IMG/VR virus record: IMGVR_UViG_3300038682_000122
Reading direction: 5' to 3' (one strand)
DNA length: 38,578 nt
Source: a virus
Numbering within the stretch: position 1 is the stretch's first letter; each line of letters starts with the position of its first letter. Below, piece after piece: positions 1-38,578 of this stretch. The notes under the pieces are model-generated. The model saw only the letters and a list, made by a program, of their open reading frames with translations. It made no database searches and was not told the DNA's origin. The position numbers and the translations under genes were made by a program.

Positions 1-77
1 TGTGGCGATTGTGGCGGCTCTGGTAGGCGCGTTTATTATATGGAAGGTGAGAAAATGAAAACCGAAGTGAACAAACC
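1..77. repeat. Terminal direct repeat, copy 1 (identical to 38502..38578). Closure overlap of a circular or circularly permuted genome.
   Basis: Bases 1-77 (tgtggcgattgtggcggctctggtagg...gaagtgaacaaacc) match 38502-38578 base for base. Confidence 0.9.
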
Positions 78-249
78 GACAAAATCAAAGATCAACTATA
101 CCGCGTTGCTGATTTCGCTGGTCACGCTTGGCTTGCTGCTTGGCGGTGCATCGCCCGAGGTTAAATCGGAAGTGCTGACCATTACCACGCTTGTTGGTCC
201 GGCGCTGATTATGACCTTGCGCACTTGGTTTACGAACGTGAAACCATGA
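55..249 (+). CDS. Holin-like small membrane protein with two predicted TM helices
   Basis: The ATG at 55 overlaps the amidase stop in wrapped coordinates (ATGA), and GGAAGGTGAG lies upstream. Hydrophobic segments are ALLISLVTLGLLLGG and LTITTLVGPALIMTL. It sits immediately after the endolysin. Confidence 0.55.
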   Translation: MKTEVNKPTKSKINYTALLISLVTLGLLLGGASPEVKSEVLTITTLVGPALIMTLRTWFTNVKP

Positions 250-261
250 GAGGAAATCACC

Positions 262-375
262 ATGACTAAGGAACTACGGAAAATATTAGCTGATCTTCTA
301 CGCCGACAAGTTAGGTTGGGGGAGCCTTTTGAGGACGCTATATATAGCAACCTTGATAGCCTTTATGAATCATGA
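262..375 (+). CDS. 37-aa hypothetical protein in the lysis cassette (below the ORF-track cutoff)
   Basis: The ATG at 262 is preceded by GAGAGGAAA. The stop TGA at 373-375 overlaps the next ATG at 372 (ATGA). Translation: MTKELRKILADLLRRQVRLGEPFEDAIYSNLDSLYES. Confidence 0.4.
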   Translation: MTKELRKILADLLRRQVRLGEPFEDAIYSNLDSLYES

Positions 376-608
376 TTTGGGCCTTCATCAAATCCGGTGC
401 GGGAAAGATTGTCGGCATTGCCGTGCTGGTGCTGGCCGCGCTTGGGTTGGCTCGGCAATCCGGCAAGAAGGCGGCAGAGAATAAGCGCAAGGTTGCTGAT
501 CTTGAAGCCGAAAAGAAAACACGCGAAAGGATGGATAATGCAAAACCTGCTGAAAATGTTGATGATGCTCGGGACAATCTTAACGATTGGTTGCACCCAG
601 ACGATTAG
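372..608 (+). CDS. Putative i-spanin (Rz-like): N-terminal TM anchor plus a charged coiled-coil periplasmic domain
   Basis: N-terminal TM segment IVGIAVLVLAALGLA followed by a K/E-rich helix (KKAAENKRKVADLEAEKKTRE). A lipoprotein ORF overlaps its 3' end, which is the classic spanin architecture. Confidence 0.55.
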   Translation: MIWAFIKSGAGKIVGIAVLVLAALGLARQSGKKAAENKRKVADLEAEKKTRERMDNAKPAENVDDARDNLNDWLHPDD

Positions 609-741
609 TGAGCAAGCCGTTTGCGATGGGATACGTGATAGCCTTATGGCGCTGACTGACGTTGTGCTGCAAGAAGGCTCGGACGCCATTGTGGTAGCGA
701 CCGAGATTGTGGTTGTTAAGTATCGGGCTGGGTGTGGTTAG
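538..741 (+). CDS. Putative o-spanin (Rz1-like outer-membrane lipoprotein), overlapped with the i-spanin gene
   Basis: An internal ATG at 538 in the +1 frame gives MQNLLKMLMMLGTILTIGC, a signal peptide ending in the lipobox-like LTIGC. The mature part is about 49 aa. It overlaps 372..608 by 71 nt. Confidence 0.5.
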   Translation: MQNLLKMLMMLGTILTIGCTQTISEQAVCDGIRDSLMALTDVVLQEGSDAIVVATEIVVVKYRAGCG

Positions 742-28173: not shown

Positions 28174-29727
28174 ATGCTTTTTGACCGCTTTAATGCCCCC
28201 GCGCTGAAATCAAAAACAAAGACTTTCCCAGCGCCTAAACGCGGCTGGATAAAGAACGAAACCCTGATTCAAGCCATGCCAGACGGGGCTGAAGCGCTGG
28301 ACAATTTCTTTCCAACGGCGCAGGGTGCAAGACTTCGCAAAGGTAATTCGTTGCATGCAACCATAGGCGATGCTGTCAAGCAGTTGATGACGTGGAAGTC
28401 AGGCGGGACGGAGATATTACTAGCGGCATCGGCCACAGCCATTTACGACATTACAACGCCAGCGGACCCTGCCGTATCGCCCACAGCAAGCGTCACAGGC
28501 CTAACGAATGGCGATTGGTCCTATACGCAGTTTGCCAATTCGGGCGGTGATTATCTAATGGCGGTTAATGGTGCGGACGCTTGCCAGACGTTTGACGGGA
28601 CCACGTGGACAACCCAAACCTTTACCGGCATTTCATCGGCGCTGTTGTCGCAAGTGTTCACGTTCAAATCACGGCTTTTCTTTATCGAGAAAGACACCCT
28701 TTCCTTTTGGTATTTTGCGGTAAATGCAATCGCCGGAACAATCACTGAATTTCCGCTAAAGGGCGTTTTTCACCTTGGCGGGTCTTTGCTATTCGGTGCC
28801 ACTTGGTCACTTGATTCCGGTTCCGGCCTTGACGATGTGGCCATATTTGTTACGACAGAAGGCGAAATAGCCGTTTACGTTGGTGATGATCCATCCAGCG
28901 CGTCCACCTGGGCCTTGAAGGGCGTTTATCGCATTGGCAGGCCGTTGAGCAAGAACGGCACGTTTAAGGCGGGTGGGGACTTGGCTATTCTAACCGAAGA
29001 CGGGATTATACCCGTTTCCGAGGCCTTGCAGAAGGACCGCGCCGCATTGCAGTCGGTCGCTATCACATACCCTATTGAAGACGCATGGCAGGCGGCGATT
29101 GCTAACCGTTCATCGGTCTATCCTTTCTCGGTAACTCTATGGCACACGCAAACCATGCTGATGATTGGCACGCCCTCAATAGACGGTTCAAACAAGGTGG
29201 CATTTGTTGCTAATTCCCGCACAGGCGCTTGGTGCCGATTTACAGGCTGGGACGTGCAATGCTCCGTCGTGTCAGACGACAATTTGTATTTTGGATCGGA
29301 AAGCGCGGAGATATTCCAAGCTGAAGTGACCGGGGCGGATAACGAGGTTGAATATTCCGGCATATGGGTGCCTAAGATGGCCGAAGGCAATATCTCGCAA
29401 AAGATGGCCGTGCACGCTAGGTTTAGGGGCAGGGCTTCGGAAACCTATTCACTTGGCCTTTCCGCGTTTAGCGATTACGAATTAGGCACCATTGATACGG
29501 TAGCGGCGGCAACTGAGGAATCGTCAAGTGTTTGGGGAACCGCTATTTGGGGGACCGCTATTTGGGGCGCAGGCGAAGATAAGACGTATATTTCGGATTG
29601 GCAGTCTGTATCATCCATCGGCACGGCTATTTCGCCAGCGGTTAAAATATCATCCAACCGTTTGACAGCACCTTCATTGGAATGCATCGCGCTTGATTTG
29701 GTTTTTCAGGAAGGCCAAATTCTTTGA
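28174..29727 (+). CDS. Putative tail tubular (nozzle) protein B-like
   Basis: 517-aa beta-rich protein. The call rests on position only. Confidence 0.35.
   Translation: MLFDRFNAPALKSKTKTFPAPKRGWIKNETLIQAMPDGAEALDNFFPTAQGARLRKGNSLHATIGDAVKQLMTWKSGGTEILLAASATAIYDITTPADPAVSPTASVTGLTNGDWSYTQFANSGGDYLMAVNGADACQTFDGTTWTTQTFTGISSALLSQVFTFKSRLFFIEKDTLSFWYFAVNAIAGTITEFPLKGVFHLGGSLLFGATWSLDSGSGLDDVAIFVTTEGEIAVYVGDDPSSASTWALKGVYRIGRPLSKNGTFKAGGDLAILTEDGIIPVSEALQKDRAALQSVAITYPIEDAWQAAIANRSSVYPFSVTLWHTQTMLMIGTPSIDGSNKVAFVANSRTGAWCRFTGWDVQCSVVSDDNLYFGSESAEIFQAEVTGADNEVEYSGIWVPKMAEGNISQKMAVHARFRGRASETYSLGLSAFSDYELGTIDTVAAATEESSSVWGTAIWGTAIWGAGEDKTYISDWQSVSSIGTAISPAVKISSNRLTAPSLECIALDLVFQEGQIL
29531..29568 (+). 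repeat. 15-nt tandem repeat, about 2.5 copies (TTTGGGGAACCGCTA / TTTGGGGGACCGCTA / TTTGGGGC)
   Basis: Encodes WGTAIWGTAIWG in 28174..29727. Confidence 0.75.
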
Positions 29728-30231: not shown

Positions 30232-31014
30232 ATGGGCAAGCCACAAGCACCAACACCCCCAGACCCGTATGAAACCGCAGGCGCGGCAACTGGCACAAAT
30301 ATTGGCACAGCTATTGCGAATACCGCGATGGGCAATGTCAACCAAGTTGGCCCGAATGGAAGCCTGACCTACGAACAAACCGGAACTTATGACTGGACAG
30401 ACCCCAATTCTGGGCAGGTTTATCAACTTCCACAATACACGGCCACACAATCGCTTTCCGATGCAGGGCAAGGCATATTTGACCAAAGTCAAGGCGCGCA
30501 AATGGGCCTGGCAACGGCGGCGAACAACTTGGCCGGAAACATTGATTCAAGCCCTATGAATTTCGATACAAGCGCCGTTGAGGGTCATTTGTTTGACCTA
30601 GCCAGCAATAGGCTTGATCCAATGATGGAGCAGCGCCGCAGTCAGCTTGAAACCCGTTTAGCTAATCAAGGTTTAACGCCTGGGTCCGCAGCTTGGCAGG
30701 CGGAAATGGGCCAGTTTGGCCAGCAGCAAAACGACATGTATAATCAGTTGGCATTGACCGGGCGCGGGCAGGCGCTTAACGAAATGTATCAGCAGCGCAG
30801 CCAGCCGCTTAATGAAATTATGGCGCTGCTTGGCGGGTCGCAGGTCCAGCAACCTAACTTTGGTGTTAACCAGCCCACACAATCGGCAACTACTGACGTA
30901 GGGGCGCTGATTAACAACAATTACAATCAACAATACCAGAATTATCAATCTGATATGTCTAACAGGCAGTCTCTTATGGGTGGTTTATTCGGATTAGCTG
31001 CGGAGGCCATCTAA
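30232..31014 (+). CDS. Putative internal virion / ejection protein (N/Q-rich)
   Basis: 260 aa. The call rests on position before the LT-domain protein, and on its low-complexity Q/N-rich sequence. Confidence 0.4.
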   Translation: MGKPQAPTPPDPYETAGAATGTNIGTAIANTAMGNVNQVGPNGSLTYEQTGTYDWTDPNSGQVYQLPQYTATQSLSDAGQGIFDQSQGAQMGLATAANNLAGNIDSSPMNFDTSAVEGHLFDLASNRLDPMMEQRRSQLETRLANQGLTPGSAAWQAEMGQFGQQQNDMYNQLALTGRGQALNEMYQQRSQPLNEIMALLGGSQVQQPNFGVNQPTQSATTDVGALINNNYNQQYQNYQSDMSNRQSLMGGLFGLAAEAI

Positions 31015-32738
31015 TGGCAGTTGATTTGAGCGGTGCAGGGCAGTTTATCTTTGGCGGCAGCACGCCTTGGACCTATGAGCAAGTGCAACGGCAGCGCGCC
31101 ATTGCTGACCGCCTTCGGGCGGCCAACGCAGAAACCCCGCGCAACGTTGGTGAGGGCCTTTCGGCTATTGGCAGGGCTTTAGGTGCTAGGCGCAGGGAGA
31201 ACCGCGCAGAACGGCGCACAGGCGAGTTGCGAGCCGAATACGAGGCAAGCCCGGCTTATCAAGCTATCTTCGGCGCGCTAGGCGGTGGACAGCCACAAGG
31301 CGGCTCGGAGCCATATATCGCGCCACAACCTAACGCACCCATCACGGAAGGGCCGTTGCCCCTTGATAACCCGCAGGGGCTACCACAAAGCATTGTTGAT
31401 GCGGTGAACGGCGCTGATAGTGTTTCTCGATTTAATGACGGCCTTTCCGTCACTGAAAGCGGTGGCAATTATGGCGTGGTGAATAGCGAGGGCTACACGG
31501 GTAAATATCAATTCGGTCCTGCGCGACTTCAGGACTATAACACCGCGAATAATGCCAACGTTACAATGGAGGAGTTTAGGGCAAATCCACAATTGCAAGA
31601 GCAGGTTCAGCGGTGGCATGTTGGTGATATTGATAACTTTGTTGCTCAAAATGGCTTGGATCAATACATCGGACAAACCATTGGCGGCGTTTTGATTACA
31701 CAGGACGGCTTGCGGGCGATGGCGCACCTTGGCGGCAACGCTGGAATGAAGCGGTTTCTTGAAAGCGGCGGGCAGTATAACCCATCTGATAGCAACGGCA
31801 CGTCATTGGCTGATTACGCGGCAACACATGCGGGCGGTGGTCAGCCTGCCACAATGTCAGCGGACAATCGCCCGCCACAAGGGCAGCAGGGACAAATTGA
31901 CCCGCGCGCGATCATGCAGCTTATGGCTAACCCAATGGCCACGCCTGAACAAAAGCAATATCTCGGCATGTTGTTGCAGCAGCAAATGGCCACGCAACAA
32001 CCTGATTATGACCGTTATCGCGTAGTAGATGGGCAGCTTGTTGATTTGGGTGCTCCGGGAGGTCCACGGCCCGTTGAGGGCATTTCCGCACCCGTTGACA
32101 CCTCAGCACCTACGGTCAAACAGATCACCCGCGCTGATGGCTCAGAGGTCGCGGTGCAATGGCAACCTGATTCATCAAGCCCAAGCGGCGGATCGTGGAT
32201 TCCGATTGATGCGCCAGAGGGCGGGGGTGTTGTTGAATCTAAAACAGACCTTACAGAGGGTCAGGCTAAACTAACGCTATTTCAAAACCAAATGGAAGAA
32301 ACTGCGCCAGTTCTGCTTGATATCGAGAAGCAGTGGGATCCTTCCAACCTTGCTGATGCGGCGGCAAGAAGCACGCCAATCGCTGGTAATTTCTTCCAAT
32401 CATCCGCAGGTCAAGCATACCAAGCAACAGCAGCGGTATGGGCCGAAGGCGCTTTGCGCGTTGCCACGGGCGCAGCGGCGACACAAGATGAAATTGACAG
32501 GAATGTTGCCACATATTTCGCGCAGCCGGGCGACACGCCGACAACGATAGCCCACAAAGCACAATTGCGTGCGCTTTATCAGCGGTCAATCAAGCTAGCG
32601 CTTGGCGCTGGAAGCGTTGCTGGAAGCCTGCCAACGCCGATAGAGTTCCTTGAGGGCAATGGCGGTGGAAATGACATATCAAGCATGACTGATGAGCAAG
32701 CTCGGGAAGCAGCGCGGAGGCTTTTAGATGGCCAATAA
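31014..32738 (+). CDS. Internal virion / ejection protein with a lytic transglycosylase (lysozyme-like) domain
   Basis: VTESGGNYGVVNSEGYTGKYQFGPARL is a catalytic-Glu motif typical of phage SLT-like domains. 574 aa. Confidence 0.6.
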   Translation: MAVDLSGAGQFIFGGSTPWTYEQVQRQRAIADRLRAANAETPRNVGEGLSAIGRALGARRRENRAERRTGELRAEYEASPAYQAIFGALGGGQPQGGSEPYIAPQPNAPITEGPLPLDNPQGLPQSIVDAVNGADSVSRFNDGLSVTESGGNYGVVNSEGYTGKYQFGPARLQDYNTANNANVTMEEFRANPQLQEQVQRWHVGDIDNFVAQNGLDQYIGQTIGGVLITQDGLRAMAHLGGNAGMKRFLESGGQYNPSDSNGTSLADYAATHAGGGQPATMSADNRPPQGQQGQIDPRAIMQLMANPMATPEQKQYLGMLLQQQMATQQPDYDRYRVVDGQLVDLGAPGGPRPVEGISAPVDTSAPTVKQITRADGSEVAVQWQPDSSSPSGGSWIPIDAPEGGGVVESKTDLTEGQAKLTLFQNQMEETAPVLLDIEKQWDPSNLADAAARSTPIAGNFFQSSAGQAYQATAAVWAEGALRVATGAAATQDEIDRNVATYFAQPGDTPTTIAHKAQLRALYQRSIKLALGAGSVAGSLPTPIEFLEGNGGGNDISSMTDEQAREAARRLLDGQ

Positions 32739-37277: not shown

Positions 37278-37502
37278 ATGACACCAGAGGAACACCAAAT
37301 GCTCAAAGAAACGAACGAGCGCACTGAACGCTTTGATCGTTTTTGGTTTGAGCCAGTGATTGAGGGAGGCAAGAGCCGGGCATGGGAACACGACCAAATG
37401 GCCAAGCATTGGAAACTGGGCAAGTTTTCGTTCAAGGCAATAATGTGGCTCGGCGGGATGATTGCCGCCGTGTCGGCGTTTCTGGTGAAATGGTGGGGTT
37501 GA
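37278..37502 (+). CDS. Small protein with a C-terminal TM helix
   Basis: AAAGGAAG ribosome-binding site. C-terminal FKAIMWLGGMIAAVSAFLVKWW. Confidence 0.5.
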   Translation: MTPEEHQMLKETNERTERFDRFWFEPVIEGGKSRAWEHDQMAKHWKLGKFSFKAIMWLGGMIAAVSAFLVKWWG

Positions 37503-37504
37503 AA

Positions 37505-37957
37505 ATGGCCATACGGAAAACCATAGGGGTTTCGCATGTTCTGGCAACTGCTGCTTGTTTGTGGGGTGTGTTGTGGGCGGTAGCATCGCCGTCATACTGG
37601 TTCGAGGTTCGAAGTGTCTTCATTCCAGATGCGGCGCGGGGCAATTTTATCCCTATGGTGGTTGACCGTGAAATCCACCTACCGTTCACGGGGGAATACC
37701 GCGTCGAGGCCCGCAACATAATCGGCAACACCATTGAGTGTGAGGCGCATGGTAAGGTTGACTACCGACCTGATGCAGAATTGCCCGAACCGCTTGTGCT
37801 GAGCTGGTGGGCCTATTCAGACACACGCTGCCACGATCTTCCAAATGGAACATACAGTGTGAAAACCACATGGGAGGTTGAACGGCTATGGGGATTCATC
37901 CCGGATGGGAAGGTCGTGGCGGTATCAAATTATTTCACAGTAGGAGAACCGGAATGA
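37505..37957 (+). CDS. N-terminally anchored or secreted protein of unknown function
   Basis: The ATG at 37505 lies 2 nt after the upstream stop. N-terminal VSHVLATAACLWGVLWAVA. About 120 aa are predicted to be periplasmic. Confidence 0.5.
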   Translation: MAIRKTIGVSHVLATAACLWGVLWAVASPSYWFEVRSVFIPDAARGNFIPMVVDREIHLPFTGEYRVEARNIIGNTIECEAHGKVDYRPDAELPEPLVLSWWAYSDTRCHDLPNGTYSVKTTWEVERLWGFIPDGKVVAVSNYFTVGEPE

Positions 37958-38559
37958 CCAAGAAAGCACTCTTTATTCACTGCCTTGCAACGCCAGCGGA
38001 CTTTATGGAAGGTCGGCCAGTTGAGGAAGTGGTTGCCACGGTTAAGCGTTGGCACCTTGAGCGGGGATGGTCCGACATCGGGTATGCTAAGATTGGGCAC
38101 CGCGATGGCACTTCGGCAGATGGTCGCGACAAAGACAATGACGGTGATGTTTATGAAGAAACCGGCGCACACGCCAAAGGCTACAATGTCAGCGGAATTG
38201 GTATCGCGCTGGTTGGTGGCAAGGGAAGCAAGCGCACTGACAAATTCAGTGACCATTACACCGAGGCGCAGCGCCAGTGGCTTTGGGATGAAATCGACGC
38301 AGTGCGCGCCCGCTACGGTGACGATATTGAGATTCGGGGCCACAATGAAGTGAGCAGTAAGGCGTGCCCTGGCTTTAATGTGCAGGAGTTCTTGGCCGAA
38401 GGTCGCCCGCGCAAATCAACCAAATCAACCACACTAGCCGCTACAGGCAGCGCTGCTGCCATTGTCGGGGCCGTTGCCGCTGATCTGCCTTCATGGGCGT
38501 ATGTGGCGATTGTGGCGGCTCTGGTAGGCGCGTTTATTATATGGAAGGTGAGAAAATGA
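37954..38559 (+). CDS. Endolysin: N-acetylmuramoyl-L-alanine amidase (T7 lysozyme / PGRP type) with a C-terminal TM anchor
   Basis: The ATG at 37954 follows AGGAGA and overlaps the upstream stop (ATGA). Zn-ligand context IHCLATP...GHNEVSSKACPGF. C-terminal WAYVAIVAALVGAFIIWKVRK. Confidence 0.8.
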   Translation: MTKKALFIHCLATPADFMEGRPVEEVVATVKRWHLERGWSDIGYAKIGHRDGTSADGRDKDNDGDVYEETGAHAKGYNVSGIGIALVGGKGSKRTDKFSDHYTEAQRQWLWDEIDAVRARYGDDIEIRGHNEVSSKACPGFNVQEFLAEGRPRKSTKSTTLAATGSAAAIVGAVAADLPSWAYVAIVAALVGAFIIWKVRK

Positions 38560-38578
38560 AAACCGAAGTGAACAAACC
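38502..38578. repeat. Terminal direct repeat, copy 2 (identical to 1..77)
   Basis: Exact 77-nt match to the window start. Confidence 0.9.

What the first reader, a model, noticed from the sequence alone, without database searches (positions are those of the whole stretch)
37954..38559. Amidase endolysin with a C-terminal transmembrane anchor
**Catalytic part.** The catalytic region is an ordinary T7-lysozyme/PGRP-type amidase (His...His...Cys context IHCLATP and GHNEVSSKACPGF). I see no N-terminal signal or SAR sequence.

**Tail.** The last ~45 residues form a Ser/Thr/Ala linker, a clear hydrophobic helix WAYVAIVAALVGAFIIW, and a basic end KVRK.

**Why it is unusual.** Known membrane-tethered endolysins use N-terminal SAR domains. 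A C-terminal anchor implies a different topology and release logic: either tethering on the cytoplasmic face until the holin acts, or N-out export.

The gene is ATGA-coupled to a 2-TM holin-like gene across the circular junction.
Basis: partly seen in the sequence, partly recalled or inferred. Interest (0 to 1): 0.6.

Follow-up and report, generated by a model that had tools for sequence, protein, structure and literature searches.

The report
Phage amidase endolysin with C-terminal membrane hairpin
This phage's cell-wall-cutting lysis enzyme really does end in a membrane anchor, but enzymes anchored this way are already published and common in marine phages; here the anchor looks like a two-helix hairpin rather than a single helix.

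Summary
ORF 37954-38559 encodes a 201-aa T7-lysozyme-type zinc amidase. It has all catalytic residues, no N-terminal signal, and a hydrophobic C-terminus ending in KVRK. It overlaps the genes on both sides by ATGA and sits in a full lysis cassette: small membrane proteins, amidase, a 2-TM holin-like gene, and an i-/o-spanin pair. The tail is not a junction artefact, because relatives at 45-81% identity carry it.

Two corrections:
- C-terminal-TMD endolysins are already published (Siskin 2019, M4Lys 2020, Enc34 and LysAP 2022), though with other catalytic folds.
The tail is therefore basic linker, weak helix, acidic turn, strong helix, basic end, which predicts an N-in/C-in hairpin.

Among related marine-phage amidases, 43 of 79 carry such tails. 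A well-conserved version (QSxTVQAS...LDGTAQ...RERIKKW) sits at the C-terminus of at least nine unrelated peptidoglycan-hydrolase folds, with tails 56-85% identical. I found no paper describing it. The window's shorter tail shares the architecture but is not demonstrably homologous to that module.

Verdict: a new variant of a known kind. Topology and release mechanism remain inferred.

The parts
37954..38559 (+). Endolysin gene, 201 aa plus stop: N-acetylmuramoyl-L-alanine amidase with a C-terminal membrane module
   Evidence: ORF listing and translation. Pfam Amidase_2 and phrog_822. T7 lysozyme match by sequence and fold.
37954..38394 (+). Catalytic domain, aa 1-147. Zn ligands His9, His130, Cys138; catalytic Tyr44 and Lys136.
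   Evidence: Alignment to 1LBA. These residues are invariant in 29 relatives. AF2 pLDDT is above 90.
38395..38433 (+). Basic, polar linker, aa 148-160 (AEGRPRKSTKSTT, net +3)
   Evidence: Read directly from the sequence. AF2 shows residues 156-168 disordered. The matching stretch before helix 1 averages +1.3 net charge over 89 tailed proteins.
38434..38478 (+). Helix 1, aa 161-175 (LAATGSAAAIVGAVA): weakly hydrophobic and Gly/Ala/Ser/Thr-rich, with SAR-like composition
   Evidence: AF2 helix 161-175 at low confidence. KD 1.8. The equivalent helix is 63% G/A/S/T across the family.
38479..38490 (+). Short turn, aa 176-179 (ADLP) with one acidic residue
   Evidence: AF2 shows a break at 176-179. 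The family loop averages -0.9 net charge.
38491..38544 (+). Helix 2, aa 180-197 (SWAYVAIVAALVGAFIIW): the strong transmembrane helix
   Evidence: KD maximum 2.25. AF2 helix 180-200 with pLDDT 83-86.
38545..38556 (+). Basic C-terminal end, KVRK (+3)
   Evidence: Read directly from the sequence. The family's C-terminal end averages +3.1.
38556..38578 (+). Start of the 64-aa two-TM holin-like gene. Its ATG overlaps the amidase stop (ATGA). It continues across the circular junction.
   Evidence: A gene in the same position (69 aa, 2 TM, ATGA overlap) is present in L084.
55..249 (+). The same 64-aa holin-like gene, read in full from the duplicated start of the window. TM1 is about aa 15-33 and TM2 about aa 40-59. 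The N-terminus is basic.
   Evidence: No Pfam, PHROG or NCBIfam match.
262..375 (+). 37-aa ORF with no TM helix, lying between the holin-like gene and the spanins. Function unknown.
   Evidence: No family match.
372..608 (+). i-spanin, 78 aa: N-terminal TM helix followed by a charged periplasmic part
   Evidence: phrog_1026 'Rz-like spanin', E = 5.2e-6. Sequence.
538..741 (+). o-spanin, 67 aa, overlapping the i-spanin in another frame. Lipobox LTIGC.
   Evidence: Similar in sequence, by eye, to the lipoprotein in L084 (lipobox LASC).
37505..37957 (+). 150-aa protein with an N-terminal membrane anchor. Its stop overlaps the amidase start (ATGA). Function unknown.
   Evidence: No Pfam or PHROG match.
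37278..37502 (+). 74-aa protein with a C-terminal TM helix; a candidate holin or antiholin
   Evidence: A 72-aa counterpart sits at the same position in L084.
38502..38578 (.). 77-nt terminal overlap, identical to 1-77, marking a circular contig
   Evidence: Exact match.

Best explanation
**What it is (shown).** The gene encodes the phage's endolysin, a T7-lysozyme-type zinc amidase that cuts the MurNAc-L-Ala bond of peptidoglycan. It has no export signal and carries a conserved C-terminal membrane-binding extension.

**How the tail is built (inferred from sequence).** The extension is not a single anchor. It runs:
- a basic linker;
- a weakly hydrophobic Gly/Ala-rich helix;
- a 4-residue turn with an Asp;
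- a strongly hydrophobic helix;
- a basic end (KVRK).

Positive charge on both flanks and an acidic turn predict a helical hairpin with both ends in the cytoplasm (N-in/C-in). Only the short acidic turn would have to cross the membrane, which I take to be within reach of YidC-type or unassisted insertion.

**How it most likely works (inferred).**
- The folded amidase accumulates on the cytoplasmic face of the inner membrane and is kept away from the wall.
- The adjacent small membrane proteins then open the membrane. The ATGA-coupled 64-aa two-TM holin-like protein is the prime candidate.
- The amidase degrades the wall, and the i-/o-spanin pair disrupts the outer membrane.

**Wider setting.** It belongs functionally with the published C-terminal-TMD endolysins. 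It is one of many marine alphaproteobacterial-phage endolysins built this way.
For: **Enzyme identity.** Supported by Pfam, PHROG, PDB sequence match and fold search.

**Role as endolysin.**
- The cassette order is small TM proteins, amidase, 2-TM gene, then i-/o-spanin.
- The same order occurs in a 58%-identical relative.
- In 33 related IMG/VR loci, an i-spanin-like gene follows the amidase directly in 26, and an o-spanin-like lipoprotein follows in 30.

**The tail is real and under selection.**
- 40 of the 83 protein-search hits plus two isolate-phage proteins carry a C-terminal TM tail, as do 43 of 79 IMG/VR loci.
- So do the isolated Roseobacter phages CRP-811 and CRP-406.

**Hairpin reading.**
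- AF2 predicts two helices separated by a short break, both in the window protein (161-175, 180-200) and in a canonical relative (155-177, 180-209).
- Over 89 tailed proteins the mean net charges are +1.3 before helix 1, -0.9 in the turn and +3.1 at the C-terminal end.
- Siskin's authors predicted the same N-in/C-in topology for its two-helix tail.

**Argument from modularity.** The conserved form of the tail is fused to at least nine unrelated hydrolase folds. Restraint before lysis therefore cannot rest on a trick specific to one fold. Keeping the enzyme in the cytoplasm is the simplest restraint that works for any fold. This step is inference.
Against: - No topology predictor or experiment was available here.
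- Helix 1 is weak. AF2 confidence is 48-61 in the window protein. A rough Hessa-scale sum, using values recalled from memory, is positive. It may not span the membrane on its own.
- In the canonical relative the two helices are separated by only two residues. AF2 therefore cannot tell a hairpin from one long kinked helix.
- M4Lys and LysAP lyse E. coli without a holin when overexpressed, and their authors predict or argue for an N-out, periplasmic catalytic domain.
- How an enzyme tethered to the cytoplasmic face reaches the wall after the holin fires is not explained by any data.
- About 13 of 33 related cassettes show no small TM gene beside the endolysin other than the spanins.
Confidence: 0.55

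Rival explanations
1. **N-out/C-in single span (SAR-like logic from the other end).** Only helix 2 spans the membrane, with the basic end in the cytoplasm. The catalytic domain and helix 1 are exported and held on the periplasmic face. The enzyme is released or activated when the membrane is depolarised by a pinholin-type partner.
For: - The positive-inside rule puts KVRK (or RERIKKW in the canonical tail) in the cytoplasm.
- Helix 1 is too weak to be a confident TM segment.
- Phobius and Phyre2 predicted this topology for M4Lys, and M4Lys and LysAP lyse cells on their own only when the TMD is present.
- The Enc34 authors raise a SAR-like release.
Against: - The Enc34 authors state that no mechanism is known for moving a roughly 150-residue N-terminal hydrophilic domain across the membrane by a C-terminal signal.
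- The stretch before helix 1 is also basic (+3 here).
- A periplasmic enzyme on a flexible linker should reach the wall too early. Nine unrelated folds cannot all share one fold-specific way of being held inactive (inference).
Confidence: 0.25
2. **Built-in holin.** The two-helix tail oligomerises and itself makes or nucleates the membrane lesion. The protein is then a holin-endolysin fusion, and the neighbouring small membrane proteins only tune the timing.
For: - About 13 of 33 related cassettes have no adjacent small TM gene apart from the spanins.
- Helix 1 is rich in small-residue repeats (GAGAG, AxxxA) of the kind used for tight helix packing.
- The M4Lys TMD expressed alone is bacteriostatic, and full-length M4Lys and LysAP lyse cells without a holin.
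- Weak hits to holin PHROGs: phrog_4237 in 6 of 26 tails (best E = 0.0038) and phrog_920 in one tail (6e-4).
Against: - This window has a translationally coupled 2-TM holin-like gene and further small TM genes, conserved in its closest relative.
- The holin matches are not significant and may reflect composition alone.
- Several of the short stand-alone hits I inspected look like fragments of fused genes.
- Holins may lie elsewhere in the genomes that lack an adjacent one.
Confidence: 0.15
3. **Artefact.** The tail is produced by a frameshift or mis-assembly at the circular junction, and the real protein is a soluble amidase of about 150 aa.
For: The last 19 codons lie inside the 77-nt terminal overlap.
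Against: - The overlap is exact.
- The identical protein is recorded on three contigs.
- Relatives at 81%, 58% and 45% identity carry the same kind of tail away from contig ends.
- 43 of 79 IMG/VR relatives have TM tails.
Confidence: 0.02

Closest known systems
Enc34-type endolysins: Hafnia phage Enc34 ORF39, Salmonella phage BSPM4 M4Lys, Salmonella phage Siskin / chi-like phages
   Same: - N-terminal catalytic domain with no signal sequence, then a flexible linker, then a C-terminal two-helix membrane domain with a charged end.
- The helix nearer the catalytic domain is described as having amphipathic character.
- The gene sits in a cassette with a small holin-like gene and overlapping spanins.
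- Siskin's tail was predicted to be N-in/C-in.
   Different: - The catalytic fold is PHA02564 (lysozyme-like, glycosidase), not a T7-type zinc amidase.
- The hosts are enterobacteria.
- Sequence similarity between the tails was not tested here.
LysAP of Acidovorax oryzae phage AP1
   Same: Protein of about 227 aa with an N-terminal catalytic domain, one C-terminal TMD followed by a cluster of basic residues, and no signal peptide. The TMD is needed for membrane localisation and for lysis.
   Different: - The catalytic domain is a GH24 lysozyme.
- The authors argue for Sec-dependent export.
- A BLAST search with the canonical tail did not pick it up among phage records.
SAR endolysins (P1 Lyz, phage 21 R21) and the pinholin S21 68
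   Same: They use a weakly hydrophobic Gly/Ala/Ser/Thr-rich helix, like helix 1 here, whose residence in the membrane depends on the proton-motive force. Pinholin pairs such a helix with a second, stable TM helix and a basic C-terminus. This comparison rests on general knowledge of these proteins.
   Different: - The SAR helix is N-terminal and engages Sec while the protein is being made, so the catalytic domain is periplasmic.
- Here the helices are C-terminal and follow a complete catalytic domain.
- No sequence relationship was shown.
T7 lysozyme (gp3.5; PDB 1LBA)
   Same: Same fold and the same Zn ligands and catalytic Tyr and Lys. About 40% identity over 140 residues.
   Different: T7 lysozyme is soluble, about 150 aa, has no tail, and also regulates T7 RNA polymerase. 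The gene here lies in a late lysis cassette, not among early or middle genes.
Canonical marine 'QSxTVQAS - LDGTAQ - RERIKKWAxGxR' C-terminal module, defined here. Isolates carrying it: Roseobacter phages CRP-811, CRP-406, CRP-403, CRP-118.
   Same: The same five-part layout at the extreme C-terminus of an endolysin. The catalytic domains of the amidase members are 45-52% identical to the window's.
   Different: - The window's tail is shorter (KVRK instead of the 12-13-residue basic end).
- It scores only 14.8 bits against a profile of canonical tails.
- Its closest relatives P0003 and P0018 score no better than shuffled sequences.
- No match was found in the relative's genome.
SpmX of Caulobacterales
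   Same: A phage-derived wall hydrolase domain followed by two C-terminal TM segments in an alphaproteobacterium. [quoted passage not shown]
   Different: It has a GH24 domain and a long intermediate domain, and it is a domesticated polarity factor, not a lysis enzyme.

Membership tests
Amidase_2 / T7-lysozyme-PGRP zinc amidases (PF01510) | Profile match above the curated threshold | tested here: met
   31.9 bits against a gathering score of 26. phrog_822 gives 5.8e-40.
Amidase_2 / T7-lysozyme-PGRP zinc amidases (PF01510) | Zn ligands His-His-Cys plus the catalytic Tyr and Lys of T7 lysozyme | tested here: met
   His9, His130, Cys138, Tyr44 and Lys136 align with 1LBA. All are invariant in 29 relatives.
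Amidase_2 / T7-lysozyme-PGRP zinc amidases (PF01510) | The alpha/beta amidase fold | tested here: met
   AF2 pLDDT is above 90 over residues 1-150. Foldseek top hit is 1LBA, E = 2e-11, TM 0.79.
Amidase_2 / T7-lysozyme-PGRP zinc amidases (PF01510) | Cleaves the MurNAc-L-Ala bond | not testable with these tools
   Needs an assay on purified sacculi or muropeptides.
Endolysins with a C-terminal transmembrane domain (functional class: M4Lys, Enc34 ORF39, Siskin, LysAP) | N-terminal catalytic domain without a signal or SAR sequence | tested here: met
   No hydrophobic window in the N-terminal 160 residues.
Endolysins with a C-terminal transmembrane domain (functional class: M4Lys, Enc34 ORF39, Siskin, LysAP) | One or two predicted TM helices at the extreme C-terminus, followed by basic residues | tested here: met
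   KD 2.25 at residues 180-196, then KVRK. A second, weaker helix lies at 161-175.
Endolysins with a C-terminal transmembrane domain (functional class: M4Lys, Enc34 ORF39, Siskin, LysAP) | The gene lies in a lysis cassette with a holin-like gene and spanins | tested here: met
Endolysins with a C-terminal transmembrane domain (functional class: M4Lys, Enc34 ORF39, Siskin, LysAP) | The TMD is required for membrane localisation and for lysis | not testable with these tools
   Shown for M4Lys and LysAP only.
Canonical marine endolysin C-terminal module (QSxTVQAS - LDGTAQ - RERIKKW) | Significant match to a profile built from canonical tails | tested here: inconclusive
   - The window tail scores 14.8 bits; none of 500 shuffles reach it (maximum 13.7).
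- P0002 scores 7.6 bits (7 of 500 shuffles reach it).
- P0003 and P0018 score at random level.
- P0001 is not among the 150 listed of 153 library hits.
- No hit in G001.
Canonical marine endolysin C-terminal module (QSxTVQAS - LDGTAQ - RERIKKW) | A 12-13-residue basic amphipathic end (RERIKKWAxGxR) | tested here: not met
   The window protein ends in WKVRK.
SAR endolysins | An N-terminal weakly hydrophobic signal-anchor-release domain | tested here: not met
   The N-terminus, MTKKALFIHCLATPADF, is part of the catalytic core.

The most novel reading that the evidence does not exclude
The C-terminal two-helix unit could be a self-contained device that works with any catalytic fold and gives a cytoplasmic wall hydrolase access to the wall. 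It might do this by sensing the membrane potential and oligomerising into a lesion (a built-in holin), or by carrying the enzyme across. In that case many marine phages would lyse with only an endolysin-with-tail plus spanins. The highly conserved canonical module, found on at least nine hydrolase folds, would then be a new class of lysis-timing element.
Probability: 0.2. Interest if true: 0.8.

Novelty: new variant of a known kind. Interest (0 to 1): 0.5.

Why it matters
How endolysins with C-terminal membrane domains reach the cell wall is an open question. The Enc34 authors state that no known translocation mechanism fits. The M4Lys and LysAP studies disagree on whether Sec is involved.

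This case adds three things:
- The architecture is not confined to chi-like enterobacterial phages. It also occurs on a T7-type amidase.
- It is common in marine phages: about half of the amidase relatives sampled carry it.
- A single, strongly conserved tail has been moved between at least nine unrelated wall-hydrolase folds.

A module that works with any catalytic domain points to a general, fold-independent mechanism. It also gives a compact, portable unit for experiments, for example fused to a reporter.

For annotation, it explains why some roseophage endolysins are labelled 'hypothetical' (CRP-403 gp39). It may also explain why some lysis cassettes appear to lack a holin.

Tried and rejected
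Genomic context came from the search for related loci and the fetch of an annotated region instead.
- **Junction artefact:** rejected on conservation.
- **Tail as a stand-alone holin gene:** a search for proteins of 28-137 aa gave 15 hits. Several of those I inspected begin inside a catalytic domain or with non-Met residues on short contigs, so I read them as mostly fragments. In the library-wide search the module lies at the extreme C-terminus of nearly every listed hit.
- **Homology of the tail to known holin families:** only weak PHROG hits (phrog_4237, best 0.0038; phrog_920, 6e-4 in one member). There was no meaningful Pfam family, and NCBIfam gave nothing for the whole proteins. Not accepted as evidence.
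- **Window tail as a member of the canonical module:** not supported.
- **Using AF2 to decide hairpin versus straight helix:** the tool returns no coordinates or PAE, and the break between the helices is only 2-4 residues. Undecided.
- **Genome-collection scan for close relatives:** returned a single locus.
- **Other 'lysis' proteins in the window:** two large virion-region proteins are labelled 'amidase' or 'endolysin' by PHROGs (28174-29727, 31014-32738). Neither has a Pfam hydrolase domain, so I do not treat them as the lysis endolysin.
- **BaGTA BgtA lead:** the NCBIfam BgtA profile aligns along nearly the whole length of a GH24-plus-module protein, tail region included. I could not fetch a Bartonella sequence, so this was not followed further. 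The papers read do not mention a TM segment.
- **Hessa-scale sums** use values recalled from memory and no position weighting. They are only a rough guide.
Full report
**1. The observation**

The window is a circular 38,501-bp phage contig with an exact 77-nt terminal overlap. It encodes a helicase, terminase, portal and major head protein.

ORF 37954-38559 (+) encodes 201 aa. The evidence that it is a T7-lysozyme-type amidase:
- Pfam Amidase_2 scores 31.9 bits against a cut-off of 26. phrog_822 'amidase' gives 5.8e-40.
- T7 lysozyme 1LBA matches at E = 8e-23. His9, His130, Cys138, Tyr44 and Lys136 align with its Zn ligands and catalytic residues. These positions are invariant in 29 relatives.
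- AF2 gives pLDDT above 90 for residues 1-150, and Foldseek ranks 1LBA first with TM 0.79.

There is no N-terminal hydrophobic segment. All the best Kyte-Doolittle windows lie at residues 170-200, with a maximum of 2.25 for SWAYVAIVAALVGAFII, followed by WKVRK. The stop codon overlaps the ATG of a 64-aa two-TM ORF (ATGA, good Shine-Dalgarno sequence) that continues across the junction.

The tail is not a junction artefact:
- P0002 (81% identity), P0003 (58%) and P0018 (45%) have equivalent tails.
- P0003 lies in the middle of a 35.7-kb Rhodobacteraceae MAG contig with the same gene order.

**2. Surroundings**

The gene order is:
- a 74-aa protein with a C-terminal TM helix (37278-37502);
- a 150-aa protein with an N-terminal anchor (37505-37957), whose stop overlaps the amidase start;
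- the amidase;
- the 64-aa 2-TM protein;
- a 37-aa ORF;
- an i-spanin (372-608; phrog_1026, 5.2e-6);
- an overlapping o-spanin (538-741; lipobox LTIGC).

This is a complete lysis cassette for a Gram-negative host, so the amidase is the endolysin. The MAG relative has the same cassette: 72-aa, 63-aa, amidase, 69-aa 2-TM (ATGA overlap), 50-aa 2-TM, i-spanin, then an o-spanin with lipobox LASC.

**3. Anatomy of the tail**

The tail reads:
- AEGRPRKSTKSTT (net +3);
- LAATGSAAAIVGAVA, which AF2 predicts as helix 161-175 and is weakly hydrophobic;
- ADLP;
- SWAYVAIVAALVGAFIIW, AF2 helix 180-200 with pLDDT 83-86;
- KVRK.

The same five-part pattern holds across the family. Over 89 tailed proteins, mean net charge is +1.3 before helix 1, -0.9 in the turn and +3.1 at the C-terminal end. 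Helix 1 is 63% Gly/Ala/Ser/Thr against 32% for helix 2. A canonical relative (P0024) is predicted as helix 155-177, a two-residue break, then helix 180-209.

**4. How common it is**
- Of the 83 hits to the whole protein plus two isolate-phage proteins, 40 have a strong C-terminal TM helix. Another 16 have a shorter hydrophobic or amphipathic C-terminal helix (for example ...LLMGLLRKLIGG), and 28 have neither.
- Of 79 IMG/VR loci, 43 have the TM tail, 20 a short hydrophobic helix and 16 nothing.
- Isolated Roseobacter phages CRP-811 and CRP-406 have the full architecture. In both, the gene directly after the amidase encodes an i-spanin-like protein of 73 aa.
- In 33 distinct IMG/VR loci with enough flanking sequence, an i-spanin-like gene starts within about 50 nt of the amidase stop in 26, and an o-spanin-like lipoprotein follows in 30.
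- A small TM protein ends at the amidase start in roughly half of them. In about 13, the upstream neighbour is a tail fibre or a soluble protein, and no adjacent holin candidate is seen.

**5. A mobile module**

I built a profile from tails alone (A2) and searched with it.
- It found the same tail on proteins of 205-235 aa with different Pfam domains.
- In a search of the whole 1.84-billion-protein representative library, 153 clusters match at E <= 1e-3 and 84 at E <= 1e-10. Almost always the match runs to the last residue.
- Pfam scanning of 90 full-length hits gave: Amidase_2 25, Phage_lysozyme (GH24) 16, CHAP 15, GH108 with PG_binding_3 9, Peptidase_M15_3/M15_2 5, Peptidase_M15_4 4, NlpC/P60 2, GH19 2, Amidase_3 1, Hydrolase_2 1.
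- Tails are 56-85% identical across these folds. The catalytic parts are unrelated, giving 22-37% in forced global alignment.
- phrog_17373 'peptidase' carries the same C-terminus.
- CRP-403 gp39 is a CHAP domain plus the module but is annotated 'hypothetical protein'. CRP-118 also matches the tail under 'hypothetical protein' features.
- 5 of 301 genomes sampled from the family of the Rhodobacteraceae MAG carry the module.
- Several of the short 'stand-alone' hits I inspected look like gene fragments.

An important caveat applies to the window itself. Its tail, and those of its three closest relatives, is a shorter variant that I cannot show to be homologous to this module:
- It scores 14.8 bits against a profile of canonical tails, which none of 500 shuffles reach (maximum 13.7).
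- P0002 scores 7.6 bits, and P0003 and P0018 score at random level.
- P0001 is absent from the listed library hits, and the relative's genome gives no match.

The architecture is shared. Common descent of the tail is unproven.

**6. What is already known**

Endolysins with C-terminal TMDs are in the literature:
- **M4Lys:** the TMD is indispensable for lysis on overexpression; azide does not block lysis; no holin is needed; the TMD alone is bacteriostatic; Phobius predicts N-out (PMC7143992).
- **LysAP:** a GH24 domain with a C-terminal TMD and a basic cluster; the authors argue for Sec-dependent export (PMC8879335).
- **SpmX:** a domesticated GH24 lysin with two C-terminal TM segments.

I found no paper describing an Amidase_2 endolysin with this tail, nor the shared module. 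The two roseophage papers I checked, one of which describes CRP-403, do not mention transmembrane endolysins. Nor does the survey of endolysins in uncultured phage genomes, nor the GTA and Rhodobacter phage papers. The library does not hold most subscription journals, so this absence is weak evidence.

An earlier first-stage note of this scan recorded the same amidase-plus-tail architecture in another genome.

**7. Mechanism**

*Shown:* the identity of the enzyme, the cassette context, conservation of the tail, and its charge and hydrophobicity pattern.

*Inferred:* an N-in/C-in helical hairpin that holds the folded amidase on the cytoplasmic face of the membrane until the small membrane proteins open it. 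The ATGA-coupled 64-aa 2-TM protein is the prime candidate. The spanins then finish lysis.

I favour this reading (about 0.55) for three reasons:
- Both flanks are basic and the turn is acidic and very short. Only the turn would need to cross the membrane, which I take to be within reach of YidC-type or unassisted hairpin insertion (my own knowledge, not tested here).
- Exporting a 150-residue folded N-terminal domain through a C-terminal signal has no known route.
- The conserved module works with at least nine unrelated folds. That argues for a fold-independent restraint, meaning compartmental separation.

Rival readings:
- N-out/C-in tethering with SAR-like release (about 0.25).
- A built-in holin function of the tail (about 0.15). 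This is suggested by cassettes with no adjacent holin candidate and by the M4Lys and LysAP overexpression phenotypes.
- Artefact (about 0.02).

AF2 cannot separate a hairpin from a kinked helix here.

**8. Verdict**

The finding is real. It is a new variant of a known kind: a T7-type amidase joined to a C-terminal membrane hairpin. It is common in marine phages. The most interesting by-product is the promiscuous, highly conserved endolysin tail module, which deserves its own experimental test.

Noticed in passing
Related loci and proteins, e.g. L022:4430-4633, L083:1572-2201, P0100, P0105, P0115, P0120, P0141: A conserved tail of about 68 aa (QSxTVQAS, Gly/Ala helix, LDGTAQ, TM helix, RERIKKWAxGxR) sits at the extreme C-terminus of endolysins with at least nine unrelated catalytic folds. 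These are Amidase_2, GH24, CHAP, NlpC/P60, GH108, M15_3, M15_4, GH19, Amidase_3 and Hydrolase_2. The tails are 56-85% identical. 153 clusters match in a 1.84-billion-protein library.
   Followed up: yes
window 37505-37957 (+): A 150-aa protein with an N-terminal membrane anchor and a likely beta-rich outer part. Its stop overlaps the amidase start (ATGA). It has no Pfam or PHROG family. A protein of similar layout sits upstream of the amidase in L036. Its role in lysis timing or exclusion is unknown.
   Followed up: partly
window 38541-38558 (= 40-57): The 64-aa holin-like gene has a second in-frame ATG five codons upstream (MEGEKMKTEV...), which resembles a dual-start motif. Only the downstream ATG has a Shine-Dalgarno sequence, and the extension is net acidic, unlike lambda S107.
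   Followed up: partly
window 372-608 and 538-741 (+): An overlapping spanin pair. The i-spanin matches phrog_1026. The o-spanin has lipobox LTIGC and two further Cys residues, and looks similar by eye to the one in the MAG relative L084 (6115-6342).
   Followed up: partly
window 28174-29727 and 31014-32738 (+): Two large proteins in the virion region match PHROGs labelled 'amidase' (phrog_5107, 1.4e-137) and 'endolysin' (phrog_26675, 8e-22). Neither has a Pfam peptidoglycan-hydrolase domain. The labels may be wrong, or these may be virion-associated lysins of an unrecognised fold.
   Followed up: partly
IMG/VR loci such as L011, L014, L032, L047, L065; proteins P0033-P0043: Many related T7-type amidases (about 178-182 aa) end not in a TM hairpin but in an acidic Ser-rich linker followed by a short amphipathic helix (...PTLVDLLMGLLRKLIGG). 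This is another way of binding the membrane on the same catalytic domain.
   Followed up: no
L008, L010, L021, L037, L059, L061, L063, L070, L071, L072: In these loci the tailed amidase directly follows a tail-fibre, structural or soluble protein gene and is followed only by the i-/o-spanin pair. No small membrane protein that could be a holin is adjacent.
   Followed up: partly
P0100 (GH24 plus module) against NCBIfam: The NCBIfam model for the Bartonella gene transfer agent endolysin BgtA (NF058676) aligns with P0100 over model positions 4-215 of 220, tail region included. BgtA may therefore carry a similar C-terminal membrane segment. The score is well below the model's cut-off.
   Followed up: no
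L083:1572-2204 (Roseobacter phage CRP-403 gp39); CRP-118 at OR420741.1 32766-32963: CRP-403 gp39 is annotated 'hypothetical protein' in GenBank but is a CHAP domain plus the canonical membrane module, followed by a small overlapping gene, so it is probably the endolysin. CRP-118 has a matching tail under 'hypothetical protein' features, but its catalytic domain was not checked.
   Followed up: partly
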